From assembly GCA_963730935.1 (NCBI GenBank), contig CAVSTP010000004.1, forward strand, positions 800,001-864,000: a stretch of DNA of 64,000 nucleotides, read 5' to 3'. The translations under genes and the position numbers were made by a program. Below, in pieces: positions 1 through 63,747 of the stretch. Numbering within the stretch: position 1 is the stretch's first letter; every line of letters starts with the position of its first letter. Under the pieces are notes generated by a model. The model saw only the letters and a program-made list of their open reading frames with translations. It made no database searches and was not told where the DNA came from. The stretch comes from an uncultured Nitrospiraceae bacterium. Lineage in GTDB: Bacteria; Nitrospirota; Nitrospiria; Nitrospirales; Nitrospiraceae.

Positions 1-408
1 GCTCAAGTGGCTACAAGACCCCACGCTGATCACGTCATACCTTGGAGCTACATCCTAGAAGACAGGGCATGGAACCTTGTATTGAGCTGCGACAGGTGCA
101 ACCGCAACAAATGGTTTTACCTTCCTCCTGAGAAGCCATTCCTCGACAAGCTTATCCAGCGTAACCAACTCCTAATCCAAGGTAATCTCCAGTCCTTTCC
201 TAATGGGACAAAGATAAAGAGAGACTTCGCCGAATGGGACGCCCCCCGCTTGGACAAGCATATCCGGGAGTCCTGGCATAAGGCACAAGCAGACGGATTC
301 AGAATTTGGCAGCCTTCTTTGGATAATAATGGGGGAAAGAAAACGGGATATTATGAATTTCGCGGCATGTGGCGGAGGTTCTTAGAACAGGAATCATGCT
401 TCCTTTGA
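1..408 (+). CDS. HNH endonuclease domain protein (5' partial)
   Basis: HADHVIPWS...WNLVLSCDRCNRNK HNH motif. Frame is open from base 1. The C-terminal ~25 aa read through a repeat copy. Confidence 0.8.
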   Translation, partial: AQVATRPHADHVIPWSYILEDRAWNLVLSCDRCNRNKWFYLPPEKPFLDKLIQRNQLLIQGNLQSFPNGTKIKRDFAEWDAPRLDKHIRESWHKAQADGFRIWQPSLDNNGGKKTGYYEFRGMWRRFLEQESCFL

Positions 409-890
409 AAAAGAAACGAGCTTCCGCTCTCTTTGAGTCGTTCGGAAAGATTCTGGATGAGCTAAGACGTAGAGATATACTACGCAGTAGTAATAGCCCA
501 ATCTCTGACTTTGCAGAGCTGCTTGTTTGCCGTGCCCTAAAGCTTGAGCGTGAGCCGCCGTCCACCAAGGGATTTGATGCGAAAGATCGCCGAGGCCGGC
601 GGTACGAGATCAAAGGCCGTCGCCTGACTCCCTGGAACAACTCCCGCCAGCTTAGTGCTATTCGTGATATAGAAGGGGAACATTTCCAATTCCTGGCTGT
701 TGTGCTCTTCGAGAATGACTTCTCGATTTGCCGTGCATGTGTTGTACCGGCAACTCTTGTCACGACCTCCGCGCGATATAGGAAAAATGTTAATGCGTGG
801 ATACTCCATGCAAACGATAAGCTTTTCCAACATACAGATGTTAGGGACATCACAAATGAAGTGCGACGGGCCTGGCGCAATACCCGCTAA
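396..890 (+). CDS. Putative PD-(D/E)xK nuclease-like protein (DUF6998-like)
   Basis: SPISDFAE...KGFDA...RYEIKGRR motif. ATG at 396 with an upstream AGGAA. Confidence 0.6.
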   Translation: MLPLKKKRASALFESFGKILDELRRRDILRSSNSPISDFAELLVCRALKLEREPPSTKGFDAKDRRGRRYEIKGRRLTPWNNSRQLSAIRDIEGEHFQFLAVVLFENDFSICRACVVPATLVTTSARYRKNVNAWILHANDKLFQHTDVRDITNEVRRAWRNTR

Positions 891-896
891 CTCAGA

Positions 897-1001
897 CTTC
901 GTGGCGTAGCGGGCCGGCTCGTTCCTCGCCTCCGCCGTCCCCTCACCGCTGATCGCACCTCACACCGCGATGGACCTGCGCATCCGTAAAAAGTAGAATG
1001 C
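897..1001 (+). repeat. Long array repeat copy
   Basis: Core, ATCGCACCTCACACCGCGAT module and GTAGAATG end. Confidence 0.85.
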
Positions 1002-1008
1002 ACCAACA

Positions 1009-1356
1009 ATGGCTAAAGCAAGACCAAGAAGTCCTTCTCTTGCCAATCGCCGACTGATTCGCGGGAAAACGGGTGGACGATGTCATGTGTGTGGTGGACC
1101 ACTCGGTAGAAACTGGCACGCTGATCATGTAAGACCGCATGCAATAGGAGGCACCTCTTTAATTGATAACTACCTCCCATGCTGTGGAATCTGTAATCGG
1201 GCACGATGGATGTCTGGATCGAAAGTGATCCGGCGACTGTTTATGTACGGAGTCGTAGCTCGAAAAGAAATACGAGCAGGGACTACGCTTGGTAAAATGT
1301 TTTTGAAGCAAGTGAAGAAACACGTTCTTGGCAAGAGACTGCGGAATAAGATGTGA
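1009..1356 (+). CDS. HNH endonuclease
   Basis: GRCHVCG...HADHV...NYLPCCGICN zinc-finger HNH signature. Confidence 0.85.
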   Translation: MAKARPRSPSLANRRLIRGKTGGRCHVCGGPLGRNWHADHVRPHAIGGTSLIDNYLPCCGICNRARWMSGSKVIRRLFMYGVVARKEIRAGTTLGKMFLKQVKKHVLGKRLRNKM

Positions 1357-1367
1357 ATCGATCCCGG

Positions 1368-1478
1368 CAGCCGGCGCGTTCCTCGCCTCCCCGTCCGCCC
1401 CTCTCACCGCTCATCGCACCTCATACCGCGATAGACCCCGCCCACGTGAAAACGTAGAATGTCCTGGTTTCTTTGACC
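1368..1478 (+). repeat. Long array repeat copy
   Basis: CTCACCGCTCATCGCACCTCATACCGCGATAGACCCCGCCCACGTGAAAACGTAGAATGTCC. Confidence 0.9.
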
Positions 1479-1774
1479 CCGGTTGGCGCCACCCGAAAGT
1501 GCATGGCTTGAAACCAGAAGTACGGCCTGAGTTGAATTGACCCGCTGACTCTTCATAAGCAGGTCGTATCATCTCAAGAAGTCATATAGCCTTGGTGGGC
1601 GCTTCCACATGAACCTTTCGCTGGCCTCTCCTGACTCACTGGGCAGAGACCGTGAGTTTCAGAGACGCTCAAAGAAGGAGGAATCGCCACGTGGATTCTA
1701 TTCGTCATGCGCTGAAAGAGATGCAGACTAAACATACTAATCCCTGAGTCTGCGCCGTATGAAAGGAGAGAGCC

Positions 1775-2839
1775 ATGAGACCAAGTACTCGCGCAGTCAT
1801 CGTGATCGCGGGCGCACTTCTGCTTGGTGTCGGATTGGCGGGTGCTCAATCCGCGCCAGTTGCACCCCCTGTTAGAAGTCCTGCGCAAGACGACCAGCCC
1901 GCGATCACTGAACAGCCAGCAGAGTCTCGTCCAACGACGACGCCGGAACGGGAAACGGCGGCACCGGACGAGGGCCGGATCGAAGATCGAGGCGTTCCAG
2001 TCAAGCCGCTGCTCGGCGTTCCGCCCACGGCCACCGCACCTCTCAAGCTTGTGGGGCCCACAGAGAATCTGACGAAGGTTATCAATACGCTCACGCACAA
2101 ACACAAGAGTCTTACAACCGTGATCACCACCGCACCGGGCCTGCAACTCACGCAACCGGTCGAGATTAGCATCCTCTTTATTTCGCCGTGGGGGACCAAT
2201 ACGCGCCTCACGCAACCCTATCAAAATAAATTCGGGAATCGTTTTGTCTACAACGATCCCGAAGGTGAAGGCAAACTGCGGCACCTGCGCATGGATATCT
2301 GGCTGACCGAGCCCAAGCCGGATGGCGGGCACTATAGCTACTCCATGACCTGGCAGGCGGATCTTGATCCGTTGTACGACATCACGGTCAGCCCGTTGAT
2401 GTTTACATTGGTGTCCGATTGCGACACTGTTCCTCTTGTGGGAACCCCGCTCGGCAATAGTGAAATCCGATTTCATTGGGCGGATCCAGCCATTTCTGAT
2501 GGCTGGTACAACTTGTCCTTCAACACCGTGAAAGGCAGGCCTGTGTCGATCAACCAGTTCGCCTGGTCGCGCACAGAATTGAGCGCGAGCGCCGTTGCCT
2601 CCATGAACCTCCATTTACCGGCCATTCTCTGGAAGGAACATGATCCCCATCTGGGGGTCGAATATGGAGGCTTACCAACGTTTTCCAAGGTGCCGCTGCC
2701 GGCCACAACCCAGGACTTCCAGTTCGCTTTATTCCCAGGTCAGCTATATCCCGGCCCGGAAGAAATTCGGGGCAATACATGCATCGCCCGACTCCAATAC
2801 AGGATTACGCGCATCCTCCGCACGTACTCCACTCTGTAA
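1775..2839 (+). CDS. Secreted hypothetical protein
   Basis: Signal peptide, Pro/Ala-rich linker, AAGGAG RBS. Confidence 0.75.
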   Translation: MRPSTRAVIVIAGALLLGVGLAGAQSAPVAPPVRSPAQDDQPAITEQPAESRPTTTPERETAAPDEGRIEDRGVPVKPLLGVPPTATAPLKLVGPTENLTKVINTLTHKHKSLTTVITTAPGLQLTQPVEISILFISPWGTNTRLTQPYQNKFGNRFVYNDPEGEGKLRHLRMDIWLTEPKPDGGHYSYSMTWQADLDPLYDITVSPLMFTLVSDCDTVPLVGTPLGNSEIRFHWADPAISDGWYNLSFNTVKGRPVSINQFAWSRTELSASAVASMNLHLPAILWKEHDPHLGVEYGGLPTFSKVPLPATTQDFQFALFPGQLYPGPEEIRGNTCIARLQYRITRILRTYSTL

Positions 2840-2972
2840 GGGGAATCGAAAGGAAGAATCCAGATATGAAAGCCAACTAACAAGAAAAGGGGAGAGGCTA
2901 CTTTGCTAAGTGCTTGAAGATTTGGGAACCGGTGCAGGAACCATTTTGCGGCGCGTGGCGGGCCGTGTGATA

Positions 2973-3305
2973 TTACGCTGCCGCGTCATCAACCCCGGCA
3001 TGGCTGTATTTCGTGTGTTTCAATAGTGCGCCGGTCTTCCAATTGGCGTACGCGCCATAGGCATCCACGAGAATTCCCTTGAGTCCACTCGACTCTTCGA
3101 GCGCATACACAACCGATGAATCGTCCGGGTCAGACATTCCTTCGAAGCGGTGATGCTCGACAATTGTAAGGTCATCGCTTTTGAAAGTCCGGTCACCTGC
3201 AGTAAGCTGCCCGTCCTCTTTGGCAACCGTAAACTCGGTGGTGAATCCGCGCTGCCGCAACCCTTCCACCGCCTCCACCATGCTTTTGTAGACGTGAGTT
3301 GACAT
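2973..3305 (-). CDS. Small conserved protein (HRFEGxSDPDD family, often labelled phosphoribosylpyrophosphate synthetase-like)
   Basis: HHRFEGMSDPDDSSVVYA...GILVDAYGAY motif; GGAGGAG RBS. Confidence 0.75.
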   Translation of the reverse strand: MSTHVYKSMVEAVEGLRQRGFTTEFTVAKEDGQLTAGDRTFKSDDLTIVEHHRFEGMSDPDDSSVVYALEESSGLKGILVDAYGAYANWKTGALLKHTKYSHAGVDDAAA

Positions 3306-3400
3306 TGCCACTCCTCCTTGAACCTTCTTGCTTCTTTAATAGTATGGGCCAGCGACACGAGGCAAGGGACTAGCGAATGCCCGAGAGTTAGAAAGCACAG

Positions 3401-3509
3401 AGGAAGTGGGAACATTCTCAATTTCGCGCAGTGTGGCGGGCCGGCGCGGTCCTCGCTCATCCCCTCACCGCTCATCGCACCTCACACCGCGATAGACCCC
3501 GCCCACGTG
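3401..3509 (+). repeat. Long array repeat copy
   Basis: GGAACATTCT adaptor, core and middle module. Confidence 0.85.
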
Positions 3510-3602
3510 TACCGTATCCAAGCTTGCTCTTCGTGATGCATCCCTCCTCGGCTTTGCGCTAGACTGCCTCCATCAGTCTGCATTCTCAATCTGAGGCCTA
3601 GC

Positions 3603-4628
3603 ATGACAGAACCCCCCGCCGCGTCGGTCCCGCCTCATGCCCAACTGGTGCAGATGGGCACGGCGCATTGGATGTCGCATGTTCTTTACGTCGCTGCGAA
3701 ATTGAGCCTGGTCGATCATATGGCCAAGGGGCGGACACGAGTTGATGACCTGGCCGCTGTAACGAAGACTCACTCCGCTTCGCTCGGACGCTTCCTCCGG
3801 ACGCTCGGGCATCTTGGGCTCGTGACCGAAGACGGAGAAGACCGCTTCACGTTGACGCCGCTTGGTGAGGCGCTGAAGACCGGCGCGCCCGGTTCGGCGC
3901 GGGCAGCAATCCTGACGCTGGCAAGCCCTTGGATCACGAACGGATGGACACACTTACTCGAGTCGGTCCAAACCGGAAAGCCGGGATTGGACCAGACCCT
4001 CGGCATGCCCATTTTCGACTGGCTAGCAAAGCATCCTGAAGAAGCCTCGCTGTTCAGCGAGACCATGGTGAGTTTTCATGGAGCCGAACCGGCGGCAGTG
4101 GCCGCGGCCTACGATTTCTCCACGATGAAGACGGTCATAGACATTGGCGGGGCAACGGGGAATCTCTTGGCTGCGATTCTCGCTCGATATCCTGGCTTGC
4201 GCGGCATCCTGTACGATCTTCCGCACGTTGTTCGTGATGCTCCGGCCCTGCTGGAGGCTCGTGGAGTGACTGATCGTGCAACAATCACGTCCGGCAGTTT
4301 CTTCGACCGTGTGCCAAGGGGTGGCGACGCGTATCTGTTGTCGCACATCATTCACGATTGGTCTGAGGCGCAGTGCCTGACAATACTGGGCCACTGCCGG
4401 AGCGCCATGGCACCGTCCAGCCGCGTCCTGATCATCGAAATGGTCCTGCCGTCCGGCAATGCGCCACATCCCGGCAAGATGCTCGACATGATGATGCTCG
4501 TCGGTCCCGGAGGCCAGGAACGGACCGAGCCAGAGTATCGCACGCTTCTCAGCAAGGCTGGGCTTCGGTTGACCAAGGTCGTGCCCACGAATTCTGCCGT
4601 AAGCGTCGTGGAGGCAATGATCGCCTAA
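3603..4628 (+). CDS. SAM-dependent O-methyltransferase (dimerisation + Methyltransf_2)
   Basis: IDIGGATG, YDLP, GSFF, HIIHDW motifs. Confidence 0.9.
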   Translation: MTEPPAASVPPHAQLVQMGTAHWMSHVLYVAAKLSLVDHMAKGRTRVDDLAAVTKTHSASLGRFLRTLGHLGLVTEDGEDRFTLTPLGEALKTGAPGSARAAILTLASPWITNGWTHLLESVQTGKPGLDQTLGMPIFDWLAKHPEEASLFSETMVSFHGAEPAAVAAAYDFSTMKTVIDIGGATGNLLAAILARYPGLRGILYDLPHVVRDAPALLEARGVTDRATITSGSFFDRVPRGGDAYLLSHIIHDWSEAQCLTILGHCRSAMAPSSRVLIIEMVLPSGNAPHPGKMLDMMMLVGPGGQERTEPEYRTLLSKAGLRLTKVVPTNSAVSVVEAMIA

Positions 4629-4651
4629 TTATTAAGCCGCAGAAGGAGCGA

Positions 4652-4846
4652 CAAGAAGAAGGGGACACGGAGGGAGAGAAGGTGTCATCAACTATTTCGC
4701 GGCGCGTGGCAAGCCGGCGCGTTCCTCGCTTCCCCGCCCCGTTCCATCCGATCGCTCATCGCACCTCACACCGCGATAGACCCCGCCCACGTGAAACCGT
4801 AGAATATCCTCGCTTCTTCCATAGAAGTCAGACTCGAAAGGCGGTT
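4652..4846 (+). repeat. Long array repeat copy with distal GAAGTCAGACTCG module
   Basis: Adaptors, core, middle module and GTAGAAT. Confidence 0.85.
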
Positions 4847-4983
4847 AGGTCTTGCAATCCAACAAAACAGATGACGCTTTGAAAGATCTCGCTGAGAGGC
4901 AGACGATCGCAGGAGACATAGAAGCCGCCAAAGCAACTGCATCCCAAATCACCTACTTCAATTACCGGCGGCAAGTCTGGAGA

Positions 4984-5162
4984 ATAAGAAAGGGGACAGG
5001 CTACTTTACTAAGTGCTTGAATGGTCTTCCACGCTTCCTTAAGGTCGATTCTAACCTCAGTGCCACAGCGGTGATCGATCGCCACGAGTTCGTCCCAAAC
5101 GGCTGTTGTCGATTCACACACGTGCGCACCGCCCTCAATTCATGATCAAACAGGGCTCATCG
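4984..5162 (-). pseudogene. 3'-terminal fragment of RAYT transposase
   Basis: Near-identical (about 4 differences) to 9444-9624. Confidence 0.9.
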
Positions 5163-5506
5163 GGGATAAGAAAAGGGACAGGCTACCTTTCTAAGTGCTT
5201 GAAGAGTTTCGAAGTGGTGCCACCAACCATTTCATGGCGCGTAACGGGCCGGCTTACTCACCGCCCCTCCCAGCAGGACATCTTGCGGACTCCCCTCGTT
5301 GACGTCGTTTCTACCGCGCTCTGCATGCCGGTCTGGATTCGAAGATAAATTTGCCTTATCCTGCACGGCTAAACCTGCTTAGGGAGTATCTTCGTTGAGC
5401 TCCGACCCAGCGTTCCGATCGCTCTGTATCCGGGAGACACTTGCCTATCGAACCTAGGAGGTTGTTGAGACGACCTATGGAATGAACCGGTCAGGGGAGG
5501 TGCACC

Positions 5507-6445
5507 ATGAAGCTGAATAAGCTTGCAGGCGTGACGTTCGGGGCAGCAATCGGCCTTTTCCTTCTCGGATCAGAACGCGCGCTCACTCAGCCTCAGCAAC
5601 CACTCGTCGGTTCCGGATTTGACCTGGATTTTCACAAGAGACAATTCCCGTCAGGAATCCCCGTGGCAGATATCCTGCCTGTACCCGGTCGAAAGACGGA
5701 AAGCGGTCCCAATATTCCTCTCCCACAGGACCATTTCGATGTTACGACTGTCGGACCGGTGGAACCGATTCCGAAGATCGGCTTGCAGGGGTTGGTTCTC
5801 GCTTCTACCCAGCCGGATCTCGTCATCCGGGGGCTCAGTTTCACCCCGGAAGGGAAGGTCCGCTACTTCGTCCTCAACCTGAGTACCCAAGCCGTCGCCC
5901 CTCCCTTTGTCGTCGATCTACTCTACAACGGTCAGCGGCGCGATACAGTCAAACACAACGGTCTGCCTCCGCTCAGTCAACAACGCGTGGAGTCCTCATT
6001 GGCCAATCCGGGTGGCTGCGCAATTGCACAACTCCGTGCAATTGCAGATACACAGCAGACCGTGGCGGAGACGAACGAAGCCAACAACACGGAGGTGAAT
6101 TCACAAGTTCCACCCTGTCCCGACCTGATCGTCCACATCGAGAAGGAGGAGACGGACACGCTTCACTATCGTGCGAAAATCAAGGTGACCAACAAGGGAA
6201 ACCGAGCAGCGGGCAGACCGTTCATCGTGTTTGCCCGTGAATCGAGCGGACCGGCGGGCTATATCACCGTGCCGCCGGCAGAAAAGCGGATCGACGATCT
6301 TGAAGCAGGGGCAACCACGAGCTTTCACTATGGCGGCAATCATCTGAAGACGTCGGCGGTCGGCTATCATGCCATTGTGGACCGTTTTGACGACATCAAG
6401 GAATCCGATGAGACAAACAACAATGTTTCGAAAACGCTGCCGTGA
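5507..6445 (+). CDS. Secreted CARDB-domain protein
   Basis: Signal peptide; two PDL...ETNEANN / ESDETNN CARDB-type repeats. Confidence 0.8.
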   Translation: MKLNKLAGVTFGAAIGLFLLGSERALTQPQQPLVGSGFDLDFHKRQFPSGIPVADILPVPGRKTESGPNIPLPQDHFDVTTVGPVEPIPKIGLQGLVLASTQPDLVIRGLSFTPEGKVRYFVLNLSTQAVAPPFVVDLLYNGQRRDTVKHNGLPPLSQQRVESSLANPGGCAIAQLRAIADTQQTVAETNEANNTEVNSQVPPCPDLIVHIEKEETDTLHYRAKIKVTNKGNRAAGRPFIVFARESSGPAGYITVPPAEKRIDDLEAGATTSFHYGGNHLKTSAVGYHAIVDRFDDIKESDETNNNVSKTLP

Positions 6446-6744
6446 GGGAACCATCCACTAATGAATCACATCTGCGAGACGATCTTCGTCCCAGCTGCAA
6501 TTCGTATCTGCGGATGAATGAACCATTTCGCGGCGCGTGGCGGGACGCACGTTTCCGCGATTCTCCGCCTCGCTCCTCCTACCGGAGCCGCGCACGCTAC
6601 GCCAGCATTTTCACTGCAAAACAAAGTAGCCTGTCCCCTTTTAACCCCACACAGCACACATGGTCACTGGTTTCCACAACTGACTTGGTATATGTTCTGC
6701 GCCTGCGGTTTCAGAACACGACTTCATCTCAGGGGAGACTTACG

Positions 6745-7251
6745 ATGAACATCAGATACCTTATCCTGTGGCTAGCGCTAGGGCTGGTCACCGCCGGAGG
6801 CTGTTCGAAGGTGAAGGAGATGTACGAGGATAGGAGGTACGAGATCAAGGTACGCACGAATTTCGACGAGTCCATCGACTTTTCTTCGTTTCATACCTTT
6901 GCCCATTCGGGGATGACGGACAGAGGACGAAAGATCGCGGCCACTGACAACAAATCGCCCTTGAGGACGAGGATCAAGGAAATCGTCAACAAGCAACTCG
7001 TCGCCAAGGAACTTCGGCAAGTCGGCTTGGAAGACCGCCCAGACCTGCTCGTAGATTTATTGTTCGGCATGATGGATGCCGATAAATATCAGGAAGCCAC
7101 CTTGGTAGTGAATCTGGCTGAATCGTCGAAAAAGAAGCGGGTGTGGCAGGCCGTGATTACCGAAACGGTGGGAGAGAGCTTGGAGAAGAACTTTGAATCG
7201 GTCGACAAGGGAGTCGCTAAGGCATTCAAAGACTATCCCCCGGCCAAATAA
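6745..7251 (+). CDS. DUF4136-like lipoprotein
   Basis: Lipobox AGGC; DFSSFHTF, PDLLV, VWQA and YPP termini; GGAG RBS. Confidence 0.7.
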   Translation: MNIRYLILWLALGLVTAGGCSKVKEMYEDRRYEIKVRTNFDESIDFSSFHTFAHSGMTDRGRKIAATDNKSPLRTRIKEIVNKQLVAKELRQVGLEDRPDLLVDLLFGMMDADKYQEATLVVNLAESSKKKRVWQAVITETVGESLEKNFESVDKGVAKAFKDYPPAK

Positions 7252-7255
7252 AGAG

Positions 7256-7418
7256 AAGAGAAACGGGACATTCTGCTTTTTCTAATCCATAAGGAACCAT
7301 TTCGCGGCGCGGGGCGGGCCGGATCGTTCCTCGCCTCCCTGCCCCTCCCCTCTCCCTCACCGCTCATCGCACCCCTCACACCGCGATAGACCCCGCCCAC
7401 GTGAAAAAGTAGAATGTC
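7256..7418 (+). repeat. Long array repeat copy
   Basis: GGGACATTCT adaptor through GTAGAATGTC. Confidence 0.9.
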
Positions 7419-7521
7419 ATAGTTTCTTTCTCATGCTCGGCACTATGGCATCAGGAATTTTGGACAATCGCGACATAAGTTGATTCACGCGACGCCGGCC
7501 ATCTAGCTCAGAGAGACCACT

Positions 7522-8307
7522 GTGTTGGTGCACATCATCGCCGATTACGGAATGGGAGACCTCGCGTTCGCCGAGGTCGTCCAACGGATCAAGGTGCATT
7601 TGCCCGACATGGAACCAGTATTGACGCCTGTCCCGGCTTTCTCCACAATCGCGGCCGGCTTTTGCATCGCACAGATCGGCCTGCATCCTTCGCCTCCAGG
7701 TACGCTCATCTATCACAACGTGGCCCCGCGGGAAGACGATCCCGCCGCCCGTGCACAGAACGCCGGCGAGCGCCTCGCTTACGCACGTCTGCCAACCGGC
7801 GTCCGCGTGATCGGGGTAAACGCAGGACACGCCCTTTCCTTTATAAAGGATGTGGCCGAGAAGCTCCGCTGGGCAGCCTCTTCGGCCGAAGGAAGCCAGT
7901 TTCGATCACGAGATGTGTTTCCTCAAGCGGCGGCAGCCATTGCGCTGGGCCTGCCCGCCGCTTTGGGTAACGACCTCGATCCCGAAAGCATTCCTTCGCC
8001 TCCCGTCTCGGCGGTGGCATATGTAGACGGCTACGGCAACCTCAAGACGACCATTGCCTACGACCCGAATCGAGTTCGACCCGGCAAGCGGATCACCGTG
8101 CGGATCAACGAGCGTCAGCATGAGGCCACGGTCAGCGATGGGGCGTTCGCCGTGCCTCACGGCGAACTGGCATTCGCACCGGGCAGCAGCGGTTGGACGC
8201 TACGTGATGGAAGCAACGTGCGCTGGGTAGAGCTCTTCCTTCGAGGTGGGAACGCCTGGAATCTGTTCGACCGTCCGGCGCCAGGATCGTTCATCGCCAT
8301 CCACTAA
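7522..8307 (+). CDS. SAM hydrolase / SAM-dependent halogenase family (DUF62)
   Basis: IADYG, QFRSRDVF, YVDGYGNLKT motifs. Confidence 0.8.
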   Translation: MLVHIIADYGMGDLAFAEVVQRIKVHLPDMEPVLTPVPAFSTIAAGFCIAQIGLHPSPPGTLIYHNVAPREDDPAARAQNAGERLAYARLPTGVRVIGVNAGHALSFIKDVAEKLRWAASSAEGSQFRSRDVFPQAAAAIALGLPAALGNDLDPESIPSPPVSAVAYVDGYGNLKTTIAYDPNRVRPGKRITVRINERQHEATVSDGAFAVPHGELAFAPGSSGWTLRDGSNVRWVELFLRGGNAWNLFDRPAPGSFIAIH

Positions 8308-8391
8308 TGCGCCTATAGTCTTCACGTGTAGCCCTTTGATCCCAGATCTCAAAATAATCGGCATTTCACAGTTGCCAAAGAATGGTTGAGA

Positions 8392-8543
8392 GGAATCATT
8401 TCACGCCGCGTGGCGGCCGGCTCGTGCCTCGCCTCCTTGCCCGGACTTCACCCCTCACCGCTCCTCGCACCTCACACCGCGATAGACCCCGCCCACGTGA
8501 AAAACGTAGAATGTCTTGGTTTCTTTGACCGAAGTGAGACTTG
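8392..8543 (+). repeat. Long array repeat copy
   Basis: Core, middle module, GTAGAATGTC and GACCGAAGTGAGACT. Confidence 0.9.
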
Positions 8544-8608
8544 ATCCGGTTAGGTGAGATCACTTCCCGACGCGTCGAGAATTCTTACATGATAGGACTG
8601 ACAAGATC

Positions 8609-9421
8609 ATGAATCTAAGACTTGAAGGCAGAAGAGCATTAATCACGAATGTCACTGGGCCTATCGGAGCGAGCATTGCCCAAGCGTTAGTCCATGAAGG
8701 CGTTGCTGTCGCATTGCATGGGGATAAAGAGGAAGTGAGTCGTATTGTTAGAGAAATTATTGCGAACGGCGGGAGGGCCAGTTGGACTACTGGGGACTTG
8801 GGTACAGACGAGGGAGTTGCGCACGTCATAGATCGAGCCATGGTGGAATGCGGTGGAATCGACATTCTTATTCATAACAGTAAAGTGCTGCCCGAACACG
8901 GATGGTTACATCAGCCTCCTGAATATTGGAACGACTTGTACAATCAGAATGTTGTATCTCTTGTGCGCCTAGTACGCATGTTGGAGCCACATATGCGGCA
9001 ACGGGGATGGGGCCGGGTAATTTTAGTGCCAGGAGGAAGGCAGCGGCAAACCAATGATATAGCAGATCACTCCGTTACCGACGCTGCAAACATCAATGTG
9101 ACAATAAGTCTCGCTCATGAGCTCGCACGAACCGGTATTACGGTGAATACGATAACGCCGGGGGTCATTGTGACGAACGATTCGGAGCAGTTTTGGCGCA
9201 AAGTGGCTGAAAAGCATGGATGGACTGGTGACTGGAAGGAAATCGAAGAACGTCTCTGTGACGAAGTATTATATGGTCCTACCGATCGCCTCGGGCGAGC
9301 CGAAGACGTCGCAACCCTTGTCGCCTTTGTCGCAAGTCCGGTTGCCGACTTCATTAACGGTACAAATCTGGCTGTAGATGGCGGATACACCGCTGCTCTT
9401 CGGCATCTCGCAATGCACTAA
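8609..9421 (+). CDS. SDR family oxidoreductase (degenerate motifs)
   Basis: GRRALIT, GITVNTITPG, NGTNLAVDGG. The YxxxK motif is not evident. Confidence 0.8.
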   Translation: MNLRLEGRRALITNVTGPIGASIAQALVHEGVAVALHGDKEEVSRIVREIIANGGRASWTTGDLGTDEGVAHVIDRAMVECGGIDILIHNSKVLPEHGWLHQPPEYWNDLYNQNVVSLVRLVRMLEPHMRQRGWGRVILVPGGRQRQTNDIADHSVTDAANINVTISLAHELARTGITVNTITPGVIVTNDSEQFWRKVAEKHGWTGDWKEIEERLCDEVLYGPTDRLGRAEDVATLVAFVASPVADFINGTNLAVDGGYTAALRHLAMH

Positions 9422-9461
9422 AAGGAGAAAGAGTCATACCAGGATAAGAAAAGGGGACAGG

Positions 9462-10112
9462 CTACTTTACTAAGTGCTTGAATGGTCTTCCACGCTTCCT
9501 TAAGGTCGATTCTAACCTCAGTGCCACAGCGGTGATCGATCGCCACGAGTCCGTCCCAAACGGCTGTTGTCGATTCACACACGTGCGCATCGCCCTCAAT
9601 TCATGATCAAACAGCGGCTCATCGAGCCAGTGCAACCAGTCGCTGGGCGTCTCGACAGGAATAGGATCACTCACGTGAGAAAAGCGCAGACGTGTCCATG
9701 GCCAGTCCAACACTTGGTTCGCTAGTCCTGCCCGAACCGGATTGCGGAGAATGTATCGGATCACGATCAAGAGATGATCGTCCTGCTGAATGGGAAAACT
9801 CTTGAACCGGCCCTCCCAGAGATGTCCATGGCTCCGGTAATGCTCGTGATATCGTCGGACATGGCTCGTCATCCACCACTGCATGAAGGCACTCACTGCG
9901 CCGTCGACAGCTGGCTGTACAACCAGATGAAAATGATTTGGCATGAGACAGACGGCCAGCACTCTGACCGAGAATTTGGTTCTTGCTTTGGCGAGAAGGT
10001 CCAAGAAGACTGAATAGTCACCGTCTTTGTGGAAGACAGTCATGCCTCCATTGCCGCGATTGAGTACATGGTAGGCATACCCGGCTACTTGTCCGCGCGG
10101 AATCCGAGGCAT
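9462..10112 (-). CDS. rayT: REP-associated tyrosine transposase (RAYT/TnpA-REP, Y1 HUH family)
   Basis: MPRIPR start, YHVLNRGN, CLMPNHFHL (HUH), HLWEGRFKS, RYILRNPVRAG (catalytic Tyr). Confidence 0.9.
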   Translation of the reverse strand: MPRIPRGQVAGYAYHVLNRGNGGMTVFHKDGDYSVFLDLLAKARTKFSVRVLAVCLMPNHFHLVVQPAVDGAVSAFMQWWMTSHVRRYHEHYRSHGHLWEGRFKSFPIQQDDHLLIVIRYILRNPVRAGLANQVLDWPWTRLRFSHVSDPIPVETPSDWLHWLDEPLFDHELRAMRTCVNRQQPFGTDSWRSITAVALRLESTLRKRGRPFKHLVK

Positions 10113-10120
10113 GGGCGCGG

Positions 10121-10150
10121 ACGGTACGCGAACCAGCATTTTCGATGCAA
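10121..10150 (-). promoter_or_regulatory. Putative RAYT promoter (TTGCAT-N18-TACCGT), near-leaderless
   Basis: Lies 8 nt before the ATG with no SD. Conserved as TTGCAC-N18-TACTGT in the 38.4 kb remnant. Confidence 0.4.
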
Positions 10151-10282
10151 AGGAAAAGTAGCCTGTCCTCTTTAAATAGTGTCCCCTTTAAATTAGCTGT
10201 AACAAAGCGCCATAATTTAGCGATGGAATTCGCTTATCCGCCCCGAAGGAGCACGTCAGGAGTCGACTGGACATAAAGCTGT

Positions 10283-10891
10283 ATGGAGAACGTCATGAAT
10301 ACTCATAGCTTTGGGTACGGATTCACACTTGGAGCGGCTTTTGCTCTTTTCCTATCCCCTTTTGTGCTGTCTGCGGCAAATAAAGGCTCATCTTCACCCA
10401 GTCTGATCCCTGCCGAACGGGTAGCTGAGTATGTGCACAGCGTGATCCAAGCGGATCGGAGTGTCTACACGACCGAAGTTGTTGAACGAATGAAGACCCA
10501 AGGGATTGTGACTGCTTCCGAGAATTGGAGAGACACAGGAAAACTTCCTTTGCCGGTTCAGTTCTTGATCGAAGCGAGCCGGCTTATGGCAGACAACCCG
10601 AATGGCATTCGATTCAGGCTGATCAGCAGTTGGGCCATCAACAAAGAAAATATGCCGAGGACTGACTTTGAGAAAACTGGACTGTTGCAAATTGCCGTGT
10701 CTCCTGAGCGTCCGTATAAGGGGACGAAGACGGAACATGGCATTGAGTACTTTGAAGCACTTTATCCTGACATAGCGGTCTCCCAGAGTTGCGTCCGCTG
10801 TCATAATGCGCACCCTCAAAGCCCCAAAAAAGATTTCGGGGTGGGAGACGTCATGGGAGGCCTGTTGTTGAGCATTCCGGTCAGCCGATAG
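10283..10891 (+). CDS. DUF3365/Tll0287-like c-type heme protein
   Basis: Signal peptide; LPLP, CVRCH heme motif, GDVMGG. Confidence 0.8.
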   Translation: MENVMNTHSFGYGFTLGAAFALFLSPFVLSAANKGSSSPSLIPAERVAEYVHSVIQADRSVYTTEVVERMKTQGIVTASENWRDTGKLPLPVQFLIEASRLMADNPNGIRFRLISSWAINKENMPRTDFEKTGLLQIAVSPERPYKGTKTEHGIEYFEALYPDIAVSQSCVRCHNAHPQSPKKDFGVGDVMGGLLLSIPVSR

Positions 10892-10913
10892 CAAAATACA
10901 GCCAAGTGAGCAC

Positions 10914-11050
10914 CGGGTCGGGAGTCTTTTCTGACTGACCCATTTCGTGGCGCGGGGTGGGCCGGCTGTTTCCCCGCCTCCCCGCCCATCCCCACCACTC
11001 ATCGCACCTCACACCGCGATAGACCCCGCCTATATCAAAAACGTAGAATG
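10914..11050 (+). repeat. Long array repeat copy
   Basis: GGGTCGGGAGTCTTT adaptor, core, middle module and GTAGAATG. Confidence 0.85.
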
Positions 11051-11083
11051 GGTCGGCTCCGCATTTCCACTACGAGGCGTTTC

Positions 11084-11940: not shown

Positions 11941-12009
11941 TCGCGGCGCGGGGCGGCCCGGCTCGTTGCTCGCCTCACCGCTCCTCGCACATCACACCGC
12001 GATTGAACC
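11941..12009 (+). repeat. Array repeat copy (internally shortened)
   Basis: Core and middle module. Confidence 0.8.
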
Positions 12010-59777: not shown

Positions 59778-60191
59778 ATGCAGACCTTCGCACCCATCCT
59801 CTTCATCGATAACCATGACGACGAGCGCCAGTATTGGGCACAGCGGTTGAGAATTTCCTTGCCCGATTATGTGGTCCTCGAAGCTTCCACTGGAAAGGCA
59901 GGGCTCGTGATTTGCCGGTCGCAGCGGGTTGAGTGCGTTATCTCGGAATTGACGCTCCCTGACATCTCAGGTTTTGAAGTACTCTTGCAGTTGGTATCCA
60001 CACCCCGCCATCCAGAGATAGCGTTTATCTTCCTTACCCGACTCACTCTTTCATCCATGAGGCACCTTGCATTAAACAATGGCGCACAAGCGTACTTGGT
60101 TAAATCTCATAGCTCTTGTGATGACCTAGACCGTACAATTCACAAGGCGCTTGCGAGTGTTGCCCCGACTCGAAAGGAGCTTCGCTCCTAA
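59778..60191 (+). CDS. Atypical response regulator receiver
   Basis: ILFID, ELTLPDISGFEVL, GAQAYLVK. Confidence 0.8.
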   Translation: MQTFAPILFIDNHDDERQYWAQRLRISLPDYVVLEASTGKAGLVICRSQRVECVISELTLPDISGFEVLLQLVSTPRHPEIAFIFLTRLTLSSMRHLALNNGAQAYLVKSHSSCDDLDRTIHKALASVAPTRKELRS

Positions 60192-60452
60192 ACCCGAAGC
60201 CATCCTGGTTTGTGGTTTCTTGCGGCGTTAGGTTGTCTTGGAAAGGGATGCCTCACCTGGCCAGCCAGATTGTATCGAACCGCCCTGAGTAGCTCATTCA
60301 TAGGGGTCCGGAGTCTTTTCTTGACGAGAAAAAACCACGGGGACATTCTGAATTTCGGGCCCGTGGCGGGAACCTAAGTCGGCTGGTCGCGTGTCGAATC
60401 GTATCTCAGACTTGCATTTTAGACAACCGATATGACTAGGATCACAATAGCG

Positions 60453-62637
60453 ATGACGAATTTGCCACCAGATCGCCAGCCTCAGACTCCCGACACATCC
60501 GTCGACCTCGGCAGTCCAAGCTTGTTTTTCAACCGAGAACTCAGCTGGCTCCAATTCAACCTGCGAGTCTTAGAGGAAGCCGAAAATACGAGACATCCAT
60601 TGCTGGAACGGGTCAAGTTTCTGGCAATCTTCGCGACGAATCTCGACGAGTTCTTCATGGTGAGAGTATCGGGTCTCCGCCGTCAAATTGCGGGAGGAGC
60701 CGGCGAGATCCCGCCCGACGCCATGACGCCTTCTGATCAAATGTTGGCCATATGCCGTGAGCTGACAGTACATCTTGAGCGGCATCAAGACTGCTGGAAG
60801 AAAGATCTCTTGCCCAGGCTCCGTGAAGCAGGCATTCATGTCCTCCACATGAATGAATTGAATCAGCGCGAGCGGGACAGCCTGCGCCAATACTTTTCAC
60901 GAGAAATCTTTCCGACGCTCACTCCTCTGGCCATTGACCCGACCCACCCCTTTCCACATATCTCGAATCTCAGTTTCAATCTCGCAGTCGTCGTCAAAGA
61001 TCCTGATCGCGGTGAATGCTTCGCCCGCGTCAAGTTACCGGACGTGTTTCGGCGCCTCGTGTCCGTTCCCGGGCACGATGCGGACGCTCCGAAGAAAACA
61101 GAACTGGAGACAAGTCAGAAGAGCCAACGATTCGTCTGGCTGGAAGAGATTGTGGCAGACAATCTGGATCTGCTGTTTCCCGGTCTCGAAATCGTCGCCT
61201 CTTATCCCTTCCGCGTGACACGGGACGTCGAAGTGACGATCAAAGATGACGAAGCTCCCGACCTGATCACGGCGGTCGAGGAACAGCTCGAGTTACAGGA
61301 GTTTGGTTCCACGGTGCGGTTGGAGCTGGATGCCACCACTCCGAAGCATATTGCCGAAATCCTCACCAAGAACCTCCAGTTACCATCGTATTTGGTCTAC
61401 ACCGGAGAGGATCCGATCGGCATGGCCGGAGATCATGGAACTGACCTCGCTCGAACGTCCCGACCTGAAAGATGCTCCTTTCCAGCCATCCATTCCTGCG
61501 CTCTTAAGCAAGCCTGGCGGCATCCTGAACGCCATTCGGCACCAGGACTTGCTGCTCTATCATCCCTATGACAGTTTCATGCCAGTTGTGGACTTCGTCC
61601 GCGAGGCGGCCAATGATCCCAATGTCCTCGCGATCAAACAGACACTCTATCGTGTCAACCCACGATCGCCCATTGTTGACGCGTTGATGGAGGCCCGCGT
61701 CAACGGGAAGCAGGTGGCCGTCCTTGTCGAGCTGAAGGCCCGATTTGATGAAGAAAACAATATCGAATGGGCTCGGAAGCTTGAAGACGAAGGCGTGCAC
61801 GTCGTCTATGGAGTGCGCGGGCTCAAGACCCATACGAAGGTCTGTTTGGTCATCAGACGGGATGCCGATGGAATCCGGCGCTATGTCCATCTCGGCACTG
61901 GAAACTATAACGTCGTGTCGAGTCGCATCTACACCGACCTGAGCTATTTCACTTGTGATCCCGTCATCGGCACTGATGTGTCAGACCTCTTCAATGCTCT
62001 GACCGGATACTCCCGCAAGATAGCCTACGCGAGATTGCTGGTCGCCCCAACGACATTGAGGCGGGAAATGATCGAACGAATTGATCGTGAGATCCACCAT
62101 CACCGCGAACATGGCGGAGGGCACCTTTCTTTCAAGATGAATGCGCTCGTCGACAAGCCATGCATCCAAGCGCTCTATCGTGCGTCGCAAGCCGGCGTGA
62201 AAATCGATTTACAGGTACGAGGCATCTGCTGCTTGCGGCCCGGCGTGCCAAGAGTGAGTGAAACCATCACGGTGCGCTCGGTCGTCGGTCGGTTTCTGGA
62301 ACATGCCAGGATCTACTACTTTCACAATGCGGGACAACACGAAGTGCTCTTAGGCAGCGCGGATCTTATGCCGCGAAATCTCGATCGCAGGGTGGAAATT
62401 CTCTTTCCCGTGCTTCATCCGCAATGGCGAGACACGATCATCAATGACATTCTCGCGGTGGGAATTCGGGATAATGTTCAGGCAAGACGATTGCTGCCTG
62501 ATGGCAGGTACGAACGTCTTCATCCGCTGGATGGCGATCAGGCGATCGATTCTCAAGAATGGCTGCTCACTCGATGGAAGTCCGAGTCGAAAAAAGATAC
62601 CGCCTCAGATCGTTTACGTGTAACCTCGATTGAGTGA
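60453..62637 (+). pseudogene. ppk1: Polyphosphate kinase 1, frameshifted
   Basis: FNRELSWL, NLDEFFMVRV in the first frame; HPYDSF, ELKARFDEENN, GRFLEH in the second. Extra G at about 61428. Confidence 0.85.
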
Positions 62638-63245
62638 AAAAAGCCAGGCGCTCATCACACGACTGCTACCGAGCACAATTCGCCATTCACGCCTGCTTTT
62701 TCACATTTGCTTTTCTGGGTCTATCGATCCTCGTCTCAGAACACAGCATCGCAGGTGATATCACTCTTTTGGACATCGGCCCACGCTACGGGTTCAGCCG
62801 GAATGAACCTCTTTTAGGGAAGCGACAAACAGAATCTTTTAACCTTGTCGACCTAGCTGCCACCTTCAGACTGCCTTGGTCATGGCCACTGGGGCAGAGT
62901 CCGTGGAGTATCGAGACAAGACTGATCACCAGCGCGGGAGCTCTCTCCGCTGCTGGGAAAACCGGGTTCATTGCAGCTGTCCACCCGGATGTGGCCTTGA
63001 CCGGCTGGAACAATTTTGTTTCGATTGATGTGGGAGTAGGTCTAGCATTCTTGGGGCGAGAACAATACGGCTCGCAGGACTTCGGAGGGCCTGTCCAATT
63101 TGGACTCACGATGGCGCTTCAAATCCACCCGATCTCTCATGCGTTTGCGGGCTTTCGATTTCAGCACTTTTCAGACGCAGGCATGTATGGTTCGGATTCC
63201 CTCGGCATTGACTTATACCTCATCGAGGTCGGCTACCGATTCTGA
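62634..63245 (+). CDS. Acyloxyacyl hydrolase / PagL-like outer-membrane protein
   Basis: FGGPVQF, FQHFSDAG, terminal GYRF. Confidence 0.75.
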   Translation: MKKARRSSHDCYRAQFAIHACFFTFAFLGLSILVSEHSIAGDITLLDIGPRYGFSRNEPLLGKRQTESFNLVDLAATFRLPWSWPLGQSPWSIETRLITSAGALSAAGKTGFIAAVHPDVALTGWNNFVSIDVGVGLAFLGREQYGSQDFGGPVQFGLTMALQIHPISHAFAGFRFQHFSDAGMYGSDSLGIDLYLIEVGYRF

Positions 63246-63747
63246 TGTCAACCCTAGCCGACCCCGAATTAGTCTGGGAATGTCTGCTTCGACGAACTTC
63301 CCGAGAAGGATGAGCGATTCTTGCCATGATGACGCCGAAACATTCCATCGGTGAGTGGGGTGTTATGGCTGACTTTGCCGCTCCCTAGGGGCACGTCCTC
63401 TCGCTATGGGAAAAGCCGAAAACATAAGCCTACGGGCCGGGAAGACACAAGGTGGGGCAAAACGACCGTGCCATCCGAACGGCAAGGCGGGACGAAGGAG
63501 AGAAAACGGGGGTCTCCTGAATCGCGGCGCATGGCGGTCCAGTCTTGTCGCCTACATCTCGGTTGAACGTCTCCATGCGCAACGGTGGGAGAAATTCGCT
63601 GACCCATAGTCAGCACATCTAATAGGTTCGCCTGTCAATTCTGACAGTATTCCTCTCTCCATCCCGGACATATACTTTCCCTTAAGACTCAACGCGGAGG
63701 AACACAACGTAACCGCCACGGGTTTGTCGGCCTGGAACAAGGCACAC

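What the first reader, a model, noticed from the sequence alone, without database searches (positions are those of the whole stretch)
336..63537. Integron-like gene-cassette array organised by RAYT-associated directional repeats
Seen: about 55-60 copies of one modular repeat, all on the + strand, fall between unrelated 1-5 gene units across the whole window. An intact RAYT and RAYT fragments are embedded, and the RAYT ends are part of the repeat. No intI, attC or cas is present. Known: RAYTs (Y1 HUH) cleave ssDNA at REPs and are associated with REP/REPIN spread; I know of no established role in building cargo-gene arrays. The cargo (TA pair, nucleases, small enzymes, lipoproteins) resembles superintegron content. 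Inference: this is a RAYT-driven gene capture or shuffling platform, functionally analogous to a superintegron.
Basis: partly seen in the sequence, partly recalled or inferred. Interest (0 to 1): 0.93.

Follow-up and report, generated by a model that had tools for sequence, protein, structure and literature searches.

The report
Repeat-punctuated swappable gene array in Nitrospira
A stretch of a Nitrospira chromosome is a long run of unrelated accessory genes separated by same-facing copies of one composite repeat with an invariant 20-base core, at a spot whose gene content differs between related bacteria, so it looks like a gene-swapping platform that is not a classical integron.

Summary
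The 18-nt core TTTCGCGGCGCGTGGCGG occurs 40 times in the window, all on the + strand, against 0.12 expected. Genome-wide, 36 of 40 profile hits lie in one region.

The window is part of a roughly 148-kb hypervariable locus. The same flanking genes bound it in three genera, and the right flank adjoins it in a fourth. Locus size ranges from about 12 to 148 kb, and repeat polarity is the same in all.

Shared gene blocks are reordered between species, yet 10 of 10 keep their orientation (rho 0.07). Sequences left and right of the core assort independently.

It is not an integron. The genome has no intI, the repeats do not fold like attC, and real Nitrospira attC sites differ.

The single RAYT is intact. 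It is a TIRYT-type element whose ends carry the published GGGGWSAS motif.

RAYT as the driver is unproven. Arrays exist without this RAYT, and its orthologues exist without arrays.

Earlier notes of this scan describe similar RAYT-punctuated arrays in other phyla.

Verdict: a new variant of known repeat/transposase systems that may work like an integron. The enzyme is unresolved.

The parts
333..63537 (+). Part of the polar repeat-punctuated gene array. The whole array runs from window -1161 to about +94,000, inside a variable locus from about -4,600 to +143,000.
   Evidence: There are 40 core matches in the window, all on +. With up to 4 mismatches there are 53 between -1106 and +93,924.
13228..13247 (+). 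Example of the invariant 20-nt core CA-TTTCGCGGCGCGTGGCGG. Exact 18-mers also lie at 6526, 41029, 49550 and 57184.
   Evidence: One search lists all 40. One search shows that conservation across six genomes falls off sharply outside positions -2 to +17.
7252..7427 (+). Complete composite unit. In order: A-rich lead, left end repeat GGGACATTCTGC, core, C-rich spacer, TAGACC-17-TAGAAT box, and an inverted end repeat GTAGAATGTC.
   Evidence: 7266 T1>, 7300 core, 7377 B, 7409 T1<. One search gives the promoter-like match at 7387-7415.
13205..13512 (+). Two complete units in tandem with no gene between them (13205-13365 and 13375-13512). The second ends in an inverted RAYT-type end repeat.
   Evidence: T2< at 13497.
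936..37551 (+). Range of the A2-B right-hand module: a C-rich spacer plus ATAGAC-N17/18-TAGAAT. It has 22 copies, all on +. Junctions further right carry other right-hand sequences.
   Evidence: B: 22 hits in C4:800,936-837,551; families D1 and D3.
9462..10112 (-). Intact RAYT of the TIRYT type (216 aa from the second ATG; open frame to 10139). It is the only Y1 transposase gene in the genome.
   Evidence: Y1_Tnp, E 8e-14; NCBIfam REP_Tyr_transpos, 73 bits, cut-off 80; 4ER8 alignment with HFH and YILRNP.
9453..9468 (+). Left terminal inverted repeat of the RAYT element (GGGGACAGGCTACTTT). The RAYT stop codon lies inside it.
   Evidence: The motif fits GGGGWSAS of Di Nocera 2013. Homology between G001 and G040 starts at this repeat.
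10155..10170 (-). Right terminal inverted repeat of the RAYT element.
   Evidence: G001/G040 homology (95% nt) ends just past this repeat.
4989..5153 (+). Duplicate of the RAYT 3' end with its end repeat (165 nt, 99% identical to 9450-9614).
   Evidence: D17; G000:C4:805004-805156, 94% over aa 166-216.
43905..44794 (-). RES toxin / Xre antitoxin pair carried as cargo, antisense to the repeats. The same pair, in the same relative orientation, sits in the G007 array.
   Evidence: RES, Xre_MbcA_ParS_C; 70-75% aa to G007 C15, about 143.4-144.3 kb.
369..1356 (+). The first two cargo genes of the window: a homologue of a methyl-directed type II restriction enzyme (369-890) and an HNH endonuclease (1009-1356).
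   Evidence: mREase_II, E 3e-46; HNH.

Best explanation
The window is the left part of a hypervariable accessory-gene locus of about 148 kb. This locus occupies the same chromosomal position, between the same flanking genes, in several genera of Nitrospiraceae.

Almost every gap between gene units holds one copy of a polar composite repeat. Its one invariant part is a 20-nt core, CA-TTTCGCGGCGCGTGGCGG. To the left of the core sits an end repeat of the kind that flanks TIRYT/RAYT genes (motif GGGGWSAS). To the right sits a variable module. In the first 38 kb of the window that module is a C-rich spacer followed by a sigma-70-like box that is also an inverted end repeat.

I propose that the core, with its adjoining end repeat, is a recombination joint. 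Gene units would be cut out, inserted and reordered by strand-specific breakage and joining at these directly oriented joints, in the manner of integron cassettes. This would happen without IntI or attC hairpins.

The most likely enzyme class is a Y1 HUH transposase of the TIRYT/RAYT kind, working on single-stranded DNA as IS200/IS605 transposases do (peel and paste of cassettes into existing joints).

Shown here: the array, its polarity and confinement; conservation of the core across genera; independent assortment of the two flanks; reordering between species with orientation kept; and conservation of the locus.

Inferred: that the exchange is site-specific at the core, and which enzyme does it.
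For: - Chance and confinement. There are 40 core matches, all on +, against 0.12 expected. Of the A-module profile hits in the genome, 36 of 40 fall in one region, all on +.
- Conserved core. The core motif is found, clustered and on one strand, in 29 of 120 other family genomes, and in 15 of 39 genera counting this genome's own; the reversed control gives 0-1 hits. The exact 20-mer gives 114 stretches among species representatives, and 70 of the 80 listed are Nitrospir* records. Conservation drops sharply outside positions -2 to +17.
- Same locus and same polarity. Synteny with G001 stops at window -4,625 and resumes at about +143,000. G040 has the same right flank. Both flank genes bracket the arrays of G118 and G007, the right flank adjoins that of G093, and the core faces the same way relative to the flanks in all.
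- Reordering with orientation kept. The 10 blocks shared with G001 inside the array give Spearman rho 0.07, yet 10 of 10 keep their orientation (p 0.002). Across the whole variable region 21 of 24 do.
- The core as a joint. Similarity of the left flanks does not predict similarity of the right flanks (Mantel r -0.07 to 0.015, p 0.34-0.89). Two halves of the right flank correlate at r 0.59-0.62 (p < 0.0005). All six combinations of left and right type occur.
- Link to Y1 enzymes. The only recombinase-type family among the 228 ORFs scanned in the locus and its left flank is the RAYT. Its end repeats fit the published TIRYT motif. End repeats of at least two kinds abut the core in fixed phase (...CA|TTTCG), and the GGGGTCAGG-type repeat resembles the sequence just upstream of the 328-aa TIRYT in G118. 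In G001, G040 and G118 a Y1 gene lies inside the locus.
Against: - Arrays without this RAYT. G093 has 29 cores in 42 kb but only a RAYT pseudogene, on another contig. G117 has only an IS200-type Y1. G054 has no Y1 hit, though it is only 87% complete.
- RAYT orthologues in G101, G083 and G002 have no array in the 20-40 kb fetched around them.
- The RAYT-specific end repeat is absent from six other arrays.
- Cassettes shared with G001 are mostly not flanked by a recognisable core there. Cross-species homology ends at the gene ends, not at the cores.
- Core variants track neither flank clearly (r 0.135 with the left flank, 0 with the right), so the crossover point is not located.
- Genes lie on both strands (49 + and 37 - by a rough codon-score call).
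- No excision product or empty site was seen. The metagenome joints all fall in repeats and cannot be trusted.
- Family genomes with the core motif more often have an intI hit (11 of 29 against 13 of 91; my tally). IntI acting in trans in other genomes is therefore not excluded.
Confidence: 0.5

Rival explanations
1. Bystander repeats. The locus is an ordinary flexible genomic island. Its content turns over by horizontal transfer and RecA-dependent recombination. The composite repeat is a MITE/BIME-like selfish element that hops locally, strand-specifically, into a permissive region. It marks gene gaps without moving genes.
For: - About a dozen units are complete, with inverted end repeats around a short non-coding interior, like MITEs.
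- Tandem units without genes exist: window 13205-13512, and G093 units of 203-338 nt.
- Copy number and right-hand module are lineage-specific. Core hits at up to 4 mismatches, chance-like ones included, number 53 in this genome, 13 in G001 and 6 in G040. G093 has its own palindromic module.
- Cassettes shared with G001 mostly lack cores there.
- Di Nocera 2013 reports clustered TIR families.
Against: - A unit-transposing MITE should show linked left and right halves, and these are unlinked.
- Only 4 of 40 A-module hits lie outside this one locus in a 4-Mb genome.
- The core, its locus and its polarity are conserved across genera while everything around the core varies.
- The exact core is only 18-20 nt long, which is short for RecA-driven exchange (established knowledge, not tested here).
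Confidence: 0.3
2. Regulatory insulator. The unit is kept by selection as a terminator-plus-promoter module. A C-rich, G-poor, unstructured stretch acts as a Rho loading site. It is followed by an outward sigma-70 promoter that gives each acquired gene its own transcription. The repeated look comes from spread of a useful module.
For: - Eight of the 18 promoter-like sites in window 1-20,000 are the B module: seven TAGACC-17/18-TAGAAT or TAAAAT and one TGGACC variant. All eight are on + (18 sites found against 9.3 +/- 2.9 expected).
- An isolated B module sits about 100 nt upstream of a SnoaL gene outside the array.
- The spacer is C-rich and does not fold: 16 of 16 fold z-scores lie between -1.8 and +1.5.
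- By my reading, the next gene downstream of a B module is more often on + (about 12 against 5).
Against: - The -10-like hexamer is simply part of the inverted end repeat.
- Five B modules face the 3' ends of minus-strand genes.
- The conserved core lies roughly 100 nt or more upstream of the box and has no known regulatory match.
- The right-hand module is replaced by quite different sequences in the second half of the window and in G093.
- No RNA data were available.
Confidence: 0.15
3. A classical integron array without its integrase (CALIN). The repeats are unusual attC sites used by an IntI.
For: - The layout resembles a polar cassette array with superintegron-like cargo.
- Integron integrases exist in the family: 15 of 121 genomes score over the cut-off.
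- Genomes positive for the core motif more often have an intI hit (11 of 29 against 13 of 91).
- IntegronFinder 2.0 reported 2 CALINs in one Nitrospira genome (passage read).
Against: - There is no intI in this genome (best 86 bits, cut-off 265).
- In no genome examined was an intI seen next to a core hit; the two lie on different contigs or far apart.
- The G001 intI, at 2.6 Mb, has no such repeats nearby.
- The units do not fold as hairpins: 16 of 16 z-scores lie between -1.8 and +1.5.
- Real attC-like repeats beside a Nitrospira intI (L049 2652-2708 and 4743-4799) are unrelated to the core.
Confidence: 0.03

Closest known systems
TIRtron / TIRYT: a Y1 HUH transposase gene flanked by terminal inverted repeats. 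Sources: Di Nocera et al. 2013, PMC3733652, section 16 read; Quentin et al. 2018, PMC6006769, passages read, where most TIRYTs (20 of the 26 described) fall in subclass 2.1.
   Same: There is a single intact Y1 gene with HUH and Y---NP motifs. Inverted repeats carrying GGGGACAG (which fits GGGGWSAS) flank it. The repeat family is moderately abundant (24 copies) and occurs singly or clustered. Homology between two species ends exactly at the repeats.
   Different: The published elements are not described as punctuating a cargo-gene array of about 100 kb at a fixed locus. Here the most conserved element is a separate 20-nt core that outlives the RAYT in other genomes. This protein has 216 aa and no detected HTH tail, whereas subclass 2.1 members are described as long.
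Sedentary chromosomal integron / CALIN (IntegronFinder 2.0, PMC9024848, passage read)
   Same: It is a polar array of unrelated small gene units, including a toxin-antitoxin pair and nucleases, at a fixed chromosomal site. Content differs between relatives and orientation is kept. The junction sites have independently assorting halves.
   Different: There is no IntI, no attI and no hairpin-forming attC. Genes lie on both strands, and many units have a promoter-like box. True Nitrospira attC sites differ.
REP/BIME mosaics and REPtrons of Enterobacteria and Pseudomonas (Ton-Hoang 2012, PMC3333891, listing and abstract only; Corneloup 2021, PMC8266576, abstract and outline)
   Same: These are modular intergenic repeats built from a transposase-recognised motif plus linker motifs, with a single domesticated Y1 gene flanked by its own repeats.
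   Different: REP/BIME elements are hairpins spread over the whole chromosome in hundreds of copies. Here the folds are not significant, and 36 of 40 copies sit in one locus on one strand.
IS200/IS605 peel-and-paste transposition (recalled; touched on in the abstract of PMC6006769)
   Same: Strand-specific and orientation-specific insertion next to a short target, without target duplication, would give head-to-tail arrays of one polarity.
   Different: There is no TnpB and no subterminal hairpins. Cleavage sites are unknown, and no activity has been shown for any TIRYT in the texts I read.
TnpA_REP association with prochlorosin gene arrays in picocyanobacteria (Laurenceau et al., bioRxiv 10.1101/2020.03.09.984088, abstract read)
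   Same: A RAYT co-localises with an expanded, diversifying gene array, and its causal role was proposed from genome structure alone.
   Different: That cargo is a single gene family. The authors' own later note finds no strong evidence for or against causality.

Membership tests
Integron (complete or CALIN) | Integron integrase (IntI) gene at the array, or at least in the genome | tested here: not met
   The best TIGR02249 score in the genome is 86 bits against a cut-off of 265. No integrase family appeared among 228 ORFs of the locus and its left flank.
Integron (complete or CALIN) | attC sites: imperfect palindromes that fold as single strands (R''-L''...L'-R') | tested here: not met
   All 16 single-strand DNA folds of cores and full units have z-scores between -1.8 and +1.5. 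attC-like repeats beside a real Nitrospira intI are unrelated to the core. IntegronFinder's own model could not be run.
Integron (complete or CALIN) | Polar array of cassettes whose content varies between relatives | tested here: met
TIRtron / TIRYT (RAYT group) | Y1 HUH transposase with HUH and catalytic Y motifs, at low copy number | tested here: met
   One Y1_Tnp gene in the genome. HFH and YILRNP align to 4ER8. The NCBIfam REP_Tyr_transpos score is 73 bits, just under its cut-off of 80.
TIRtron / TIRYT (RAYT group) | Gene flanked by terminal inverted repeats with the GGGGWSAS motif, repeated elsewhere in the genome | tested here: met
   The repeats lie at 9453-9468 (+) and 10155-10170 (-). 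There are 24 copies genome-wide, 17 of them in the locus. The motif is as printed in PMC3733652 section 16.
TIRtron / TIRYT (RAYT group) | Subclass 2.1 features (long protein, C-terminal HTH-like extension) | tested here: inconclusive
   This protein has 216 aa and Pfam finds no C-terminal domain. The 328-aa Y1 in the G118 locus looks like the long form. No phylogeny was made.
REP / REPIN / BIME | Hairpin-forming palindromic units dispersed over the chromosome | tested here: not met
   The folds are not significant. Of the A-module hits, 36 of 40 lie in one region on one strand.
MITE | Short non-coding unit bounded by inverted end repeats, moving as a unit | tested here: inconclusive
   About a dozen complete units have inverted ends. 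However, the left and right halves are unlinked, and no target duplication or empty site was found.
IS200/IS605 | TnpA with subterminal hairpins, often with TnpB, in multiple identical copies | tested here: not met
   There is a single copy and no TnpB family among the ORFs scanned. The ends are inverted repeats, not hairpins.

The most novel reading that the evidence does not exclude
Nitrospiraceae carry an ancient, vertically inherited gene-cassette platform that works like an integron but is built on different chemistry. A 20-nt polar core, next to a TIRYT-type end repeat, would be cut and rejoined on single-stranded DNA by Y1 HUH transposases or by a still unknown enzyme. Cassettes with their own promoter modules would then be captured, excised and reordered at one chromosomal hot spot.
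Probability: 0.25. Interest if true: 0.9.

Novelty: new variant of a known kind. Interest (0 to 1): 0.7.

Why it matters
Integrons are the only well-understood bacterial system that stores and shuffles single-gene cassettes at a fixed site. A second system with no IntI or attC, tied to the poorly understood RAYT/TIRYT enzymes, would give those "domesticated" transposases a function. It would also explain how slow-growing nitrifiers keep a large, fluid accessory gene pool.

The 20-nt core is a simple handle. It can be used to find the arrays in metagenomes, to design junction PCR and long-read searches for excised circles, and to build substrates for enzyme assays.

This scan has noted similar RAYT-punctuated arrays in a myxobacterium, a Firmicute and a Bacteroidota genome (AI notes, unchecked). 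The pattern may therefore be general.

Tried and rejected
- attC reading: rejected by the folds and by comparison with real Nitrospira attC repeats.
- Known RNA families and tRNA-derived attachment sites: 0 Rfam matches and 0 tRNAs in the window.
- Replichore explanation: dnaA is on contig C2. The cumulative GC skew of C4 peaks near 0.38 Mb, so the array lies in one replichore. A mini-array at 533-536 kb in the same replichore faces the other way, so the strand is not set by replichore alone.
- Metagenome contigs (4 DNA runs from 4 studies laid on window 1-20,000): many joints, all between repeat copies and with short sides. These were treated as repeat or assembly effects and not used as evidence.
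- RNA: no RNA holder listed.
- Empty-site test for the orphan cassette at C4:535.7-536.4 kb: its surroundings are not syntenic in G001, G040, G077 or G061, so there was no result.
- The 26-nt repeat flanking that cassette is a separate small family (8 copies), not a target duplication.
- A recombinase at the locus border: the left flank holds B12/radical-SAM genes only. The integrase fragments at C4:736 kb are stumps beside one isolated B module.
- Ideas from memory that found no support in the sequence: a dif/pdif-like Xer site (no dyad arms), a sigma-54 promoter or an ECF GGAAC promoter in the core, and a coding reading of the core.
- Core variants as a marker of the crossover point: uninformative.
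- Literature: nothing on this motif or array in Nitrospira was found by the searches. Subscription journals and supplements were not searched.

Full report
**Observation.** The 18-nt core TTTCGCGGCGCGTGGCGG, with up to 3 mismatches, matches 40 times in the window. All 40 are on the + strand, running from 358 to 63520-63537. Shuffles give 0.12 +/- 0.33 matches. About ten more junctions carry only right-hand modules, which makes roughly 50-55 units.

Profiles of three modules were run over the whole 4.05-Mb, 6-contig genome, and they show confinement rather than spread:
- Module A: 36 of 40 hits lie in C4:798,885-880,842, all on +.
- Module B: 22 of 26 hits lie in window 936-37,551, all on +.
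- Module X: 18 of 22 hits are in the region (14 on +, 4 on -).

With 4 mismatches allowed, there are 53 cores from window -1106 to +93,924.

**Anatomy.** A full unit is 150-190 nt long and reads, left to right:
- an A-rich lead;
- a left end repeat, in variants GGGGACATTCTGC, GGTGTCAGGAACC and GGGGACAGGCTAC;
- the core, CA-TTTCGCGGCGCGTGGCGG;
- a C-rich spacer;
- then ATAGAC, 17-18 nt, GTAGAATGTCC.

That last element is an inverted copy of the left end repeat and also a 9-of-12 match to a sigma-70 promoter. About a dozen units are complete in this sense. Examples are 7252-7427 and the tandem pair at 13205-13512.

The C-rich/box module is limited to the first 38 kb of the window. Further right the core is followed by other sequences. 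Neither the core regions nor whole units fold better than shuffles: all 16 z-scores lie between -1.8 and +1.5.

**Not an integron.**
- The genome has no integron integrase (best 86 bits, cut-off 265).
- No integrase, cas or other recombinase family apart from the RAYT appears among the 109 ORFs scanned in the window (chosen from ORFs of 60 aa or more), the 106 of 110 ORFs of at least 90 aa between +64 and +150 kb, or the 13 ORFs of the left flank.
- Integron integrases do occur in the family (15 of 121 genomes over the cut-off), but in no genome examined was one seen beside a core hit.
- The G001 intI, at 2.6 Mb, has none of these repeats around it.
- attC-like repeats next to an intI in G116 are unrelated to the core.
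- One point runs against me. Genomes with the core motif more often have an intI hit (11 of 29 against 13 of 91; my tally).

**The RAYT.** The genome has one Y1 transposase gene, at window 9462-10112 on the - strand. Its HFH and YILRNP motifs align to E. coli TnpA_REP (4ER8, E 2e-4). Inverted repeats GGGGACAGGCTACTTT flank it at 9453 and 10155.

The repeat fits the GGGGWSAS motif that Di Nocera et al. give for repeats flanking TIRYT genes (section read). Quentin et al. place most TIRYTs in their subclass 2.1 (passages read). Between G001 and G040 the RAYT block is 95% identical, and the homology ends at or just past these repeats.

This end repeat has 24 copies in the genome, 17 of them in the locus. 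Of the 13 forward copies, 8 are followed by a core 26-56 nt downstream, some with about 15 nt of the RAYT 3' end between. A 165-nt copy of the RAYT 3' end lies at 4989-5153.

**A conserved hot spot with fluid content.** Against G001, a complete genome of the same genus, collinearity holds up to window -4,625 and returns at about +143,000. Between those points, homologous blocks are scattered. G040 shares the right flank and again shows a different order.

The 10 blocks shared with G001 inside the core array have no order conservation (Spearman rho 0.07), yet 10 of 10 keep their orientation. Across the whole variable region 21 of 24 do.

In other genera the same flank genes bracket or adjoin the arrays. 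These are the left radical-SAM region and the right flank genes at about +143-145 kb. G118 and G007 have both flanks, and G093 has the right flank. In each case the core faces the same way relative to the flanks.

The variable stretch measures about 148 kb here, about 90 kb in G001, at least 71 kb in G040, about 19 kb in G118 and about 12 kb in G007. Ten of the 11 gene blocks shared across genera keep their orientation relative to the locus (my reading).

The core motif is clustered on one strand in 29 of 120 other family genomes (15 of 39 genera counting this genome's own), and the reversed control gives 0-1 hits. The exact 20-mer gives 114 stretches among species representatives of all prokaryotes, and 70 of the 80 listed are Nitrospir* records.

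**The core as a joint.** Across 53 copies (48 at the stricter threshold), similarity of the 22-45 nt to the left of the core does not predict similarity to the right (Mantel r -0.07 to 0.015, p 0.34-0.89). Two parts of the right side correlate at r 0.59-0.62 (p < 0.0005). Two non-overlapping parts of the left side correlate at r 0.11 (p 0.006). All six combinations of left and right type occur.

Conservation across six genomes is limited to positions -2 to +17. The core itself was the search key, so only the sharp edges of this window are informative. Core variants track the left flank weakly (r 0.135, p 0.04) and the right flank not at all, so the crossover point is not placed.

In G093 the right-hand module is a different sequence, a long imperfect palindrome (z -0.1 to -5.2). 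Outside the main array, the core is paired with yet another module.

**Is the RAYT the driver?**

For:
- It is the only recombinase-type gene in the locus.
- End repeats of at least two kinds abut the core in the same phase, and the GGGGTCAGG type resembles the sequence just upstream of the G118 TIRYT.
- A Y1 gene lies inside the locus in this genome, G001, G040 and G118.
- Any Y1 homologue of this protein is found in 21 of 29 core-positive genomes against 43 of 91 core-negative ones (my tally; related genomes are not independent).

Against:
- G093 has 29 cores in 42 kb but only a RAYT pseudogene elsewhere.
- G117 has only an IS200-type Y1.
- G054 has no Y1 hit, though it is 87% complete.
- Orthologues in G101, G083 and G002 keep their end repeats (seen in G101 and G002) but have no array within the 20-40 kb fetched.
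- The RAYT-specific end repeat is absent from six other arrays.

The simplest reading is two layers. The older layer is the core-based array shared by the family. The RAYT element is a resident of that array in this genus.

**Mechanism.** I commit to recombination at the directly oriented joints as the way gene units are gained, lost and reordered. This explains four things:
- one polarity;
- confinement to one locus, since each new unit brings a new joint;
- reordering that preserves orientation;
- unlinked flanks.

A single-strand, HUH-type peel-and-paste into existing joints is the most economical chemistry, but it is inferred. The main rival is a bystander, locally hopping MITE in an ordinary flexible island. 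That reading is supported by gene-free tandem units, by lineage-specific bursts, and by the lack of cores around most cassettes shared with G001. A regulatory reading (Rho site plus promoter) may hold in addition.

**Literature.** I found no description of this motif or array. The nearest texts are the TIRYT papers and a preprint linking TnpA_REP to prochlorosin arrays, whose authors later withdrew the causal claim (abstract). Earlier AI notes of this scan report similar RAYT-punctuated arrays in three other phyla. They gave me the TIRYT lead, which I then checked against the paper and the sequence.

**Limits.**
- Only one genome per species was available, so no recent event could be caught.
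- Gene calls are rough.
- Metagenome joints were unusable, and no RNA data were listed.
- The tallies include unpublished genomes (G006, G053, G076).

Noticed in passing
G000:C4:533,300-536,500 (- strand); C4:273,500-273,700 (-); C3:20,680-22,170 (+): Small satellite arrays lie outside the main locus. In them the core is paired with a different module, about 60 nt long and ending in GACACCCCTTCCCAAGGGTGGC (8 copies in the genome). One single small secreted-protein gene is bracketed by two cores.
   Followed up: partly
L034-L036 (G093:C54, about 42-84 kb, - strand): A genome of another genus has 29 cores in 42 kb. Most are followed by a TGGTT-rich imperfect palindrome of about 110 nt (fold z -0.1 to -5.2). 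Several units hold no gene at all.
   Followed up: partly
window 60432-62637: The polyphosphate kinase gene appears split into two overlapping frames (60432-61571 and 61303-62637). This may be a frameshift inside the array.
   Followed up: no
L028:9816-11152 (window -4184 to -2845): A TIR-domain (ThsB-like) gene is followed directly by a caspase-family gene. This defence-like pair sits between the conserved left flank and the first repeat.
   Followed up: no
L028:7362-9496 (window -6638 to -4501): The B12/radical-SAM gene at the left border seems broken into two ORFs. The upstream ORF carries the typical N-terminus (MKVLLIFPPDW...) well inside it.
   Followed up: no
L049:847-4800 (G116:C1, about 362.8-366.8 kb): This is a real Nitrospira integron. 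An intI is followed by attC-like repeats, and a 324-aa Y1 transposase gene lies between the first two repeats.
   Followed up: no
G001:C1:15,852-16,586 against G040:C1:3,487,377-3,488,111: The RAYT block and two nearby cassettes are 93-95% identical between two species whose flanks are 77-86% identical. This hints at recent exchange or at stronger constraint.
   Followed up: no
G000:C4:1,464,306-1,506,539 and 1,663,656: Seven further copies of the RAYT-type end repeat lie in a second region of the chromosome, without cores.
   Followed up: no
L053:4980-5110 (G000:C4, about 737,980-738,110): An isolated hybrid of the satellite module and the B (promoter-like) module sits about 100 nt upstream of a SnoaL gene, next to two tyrosine-recombinase stumps.
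   Followed up: partly
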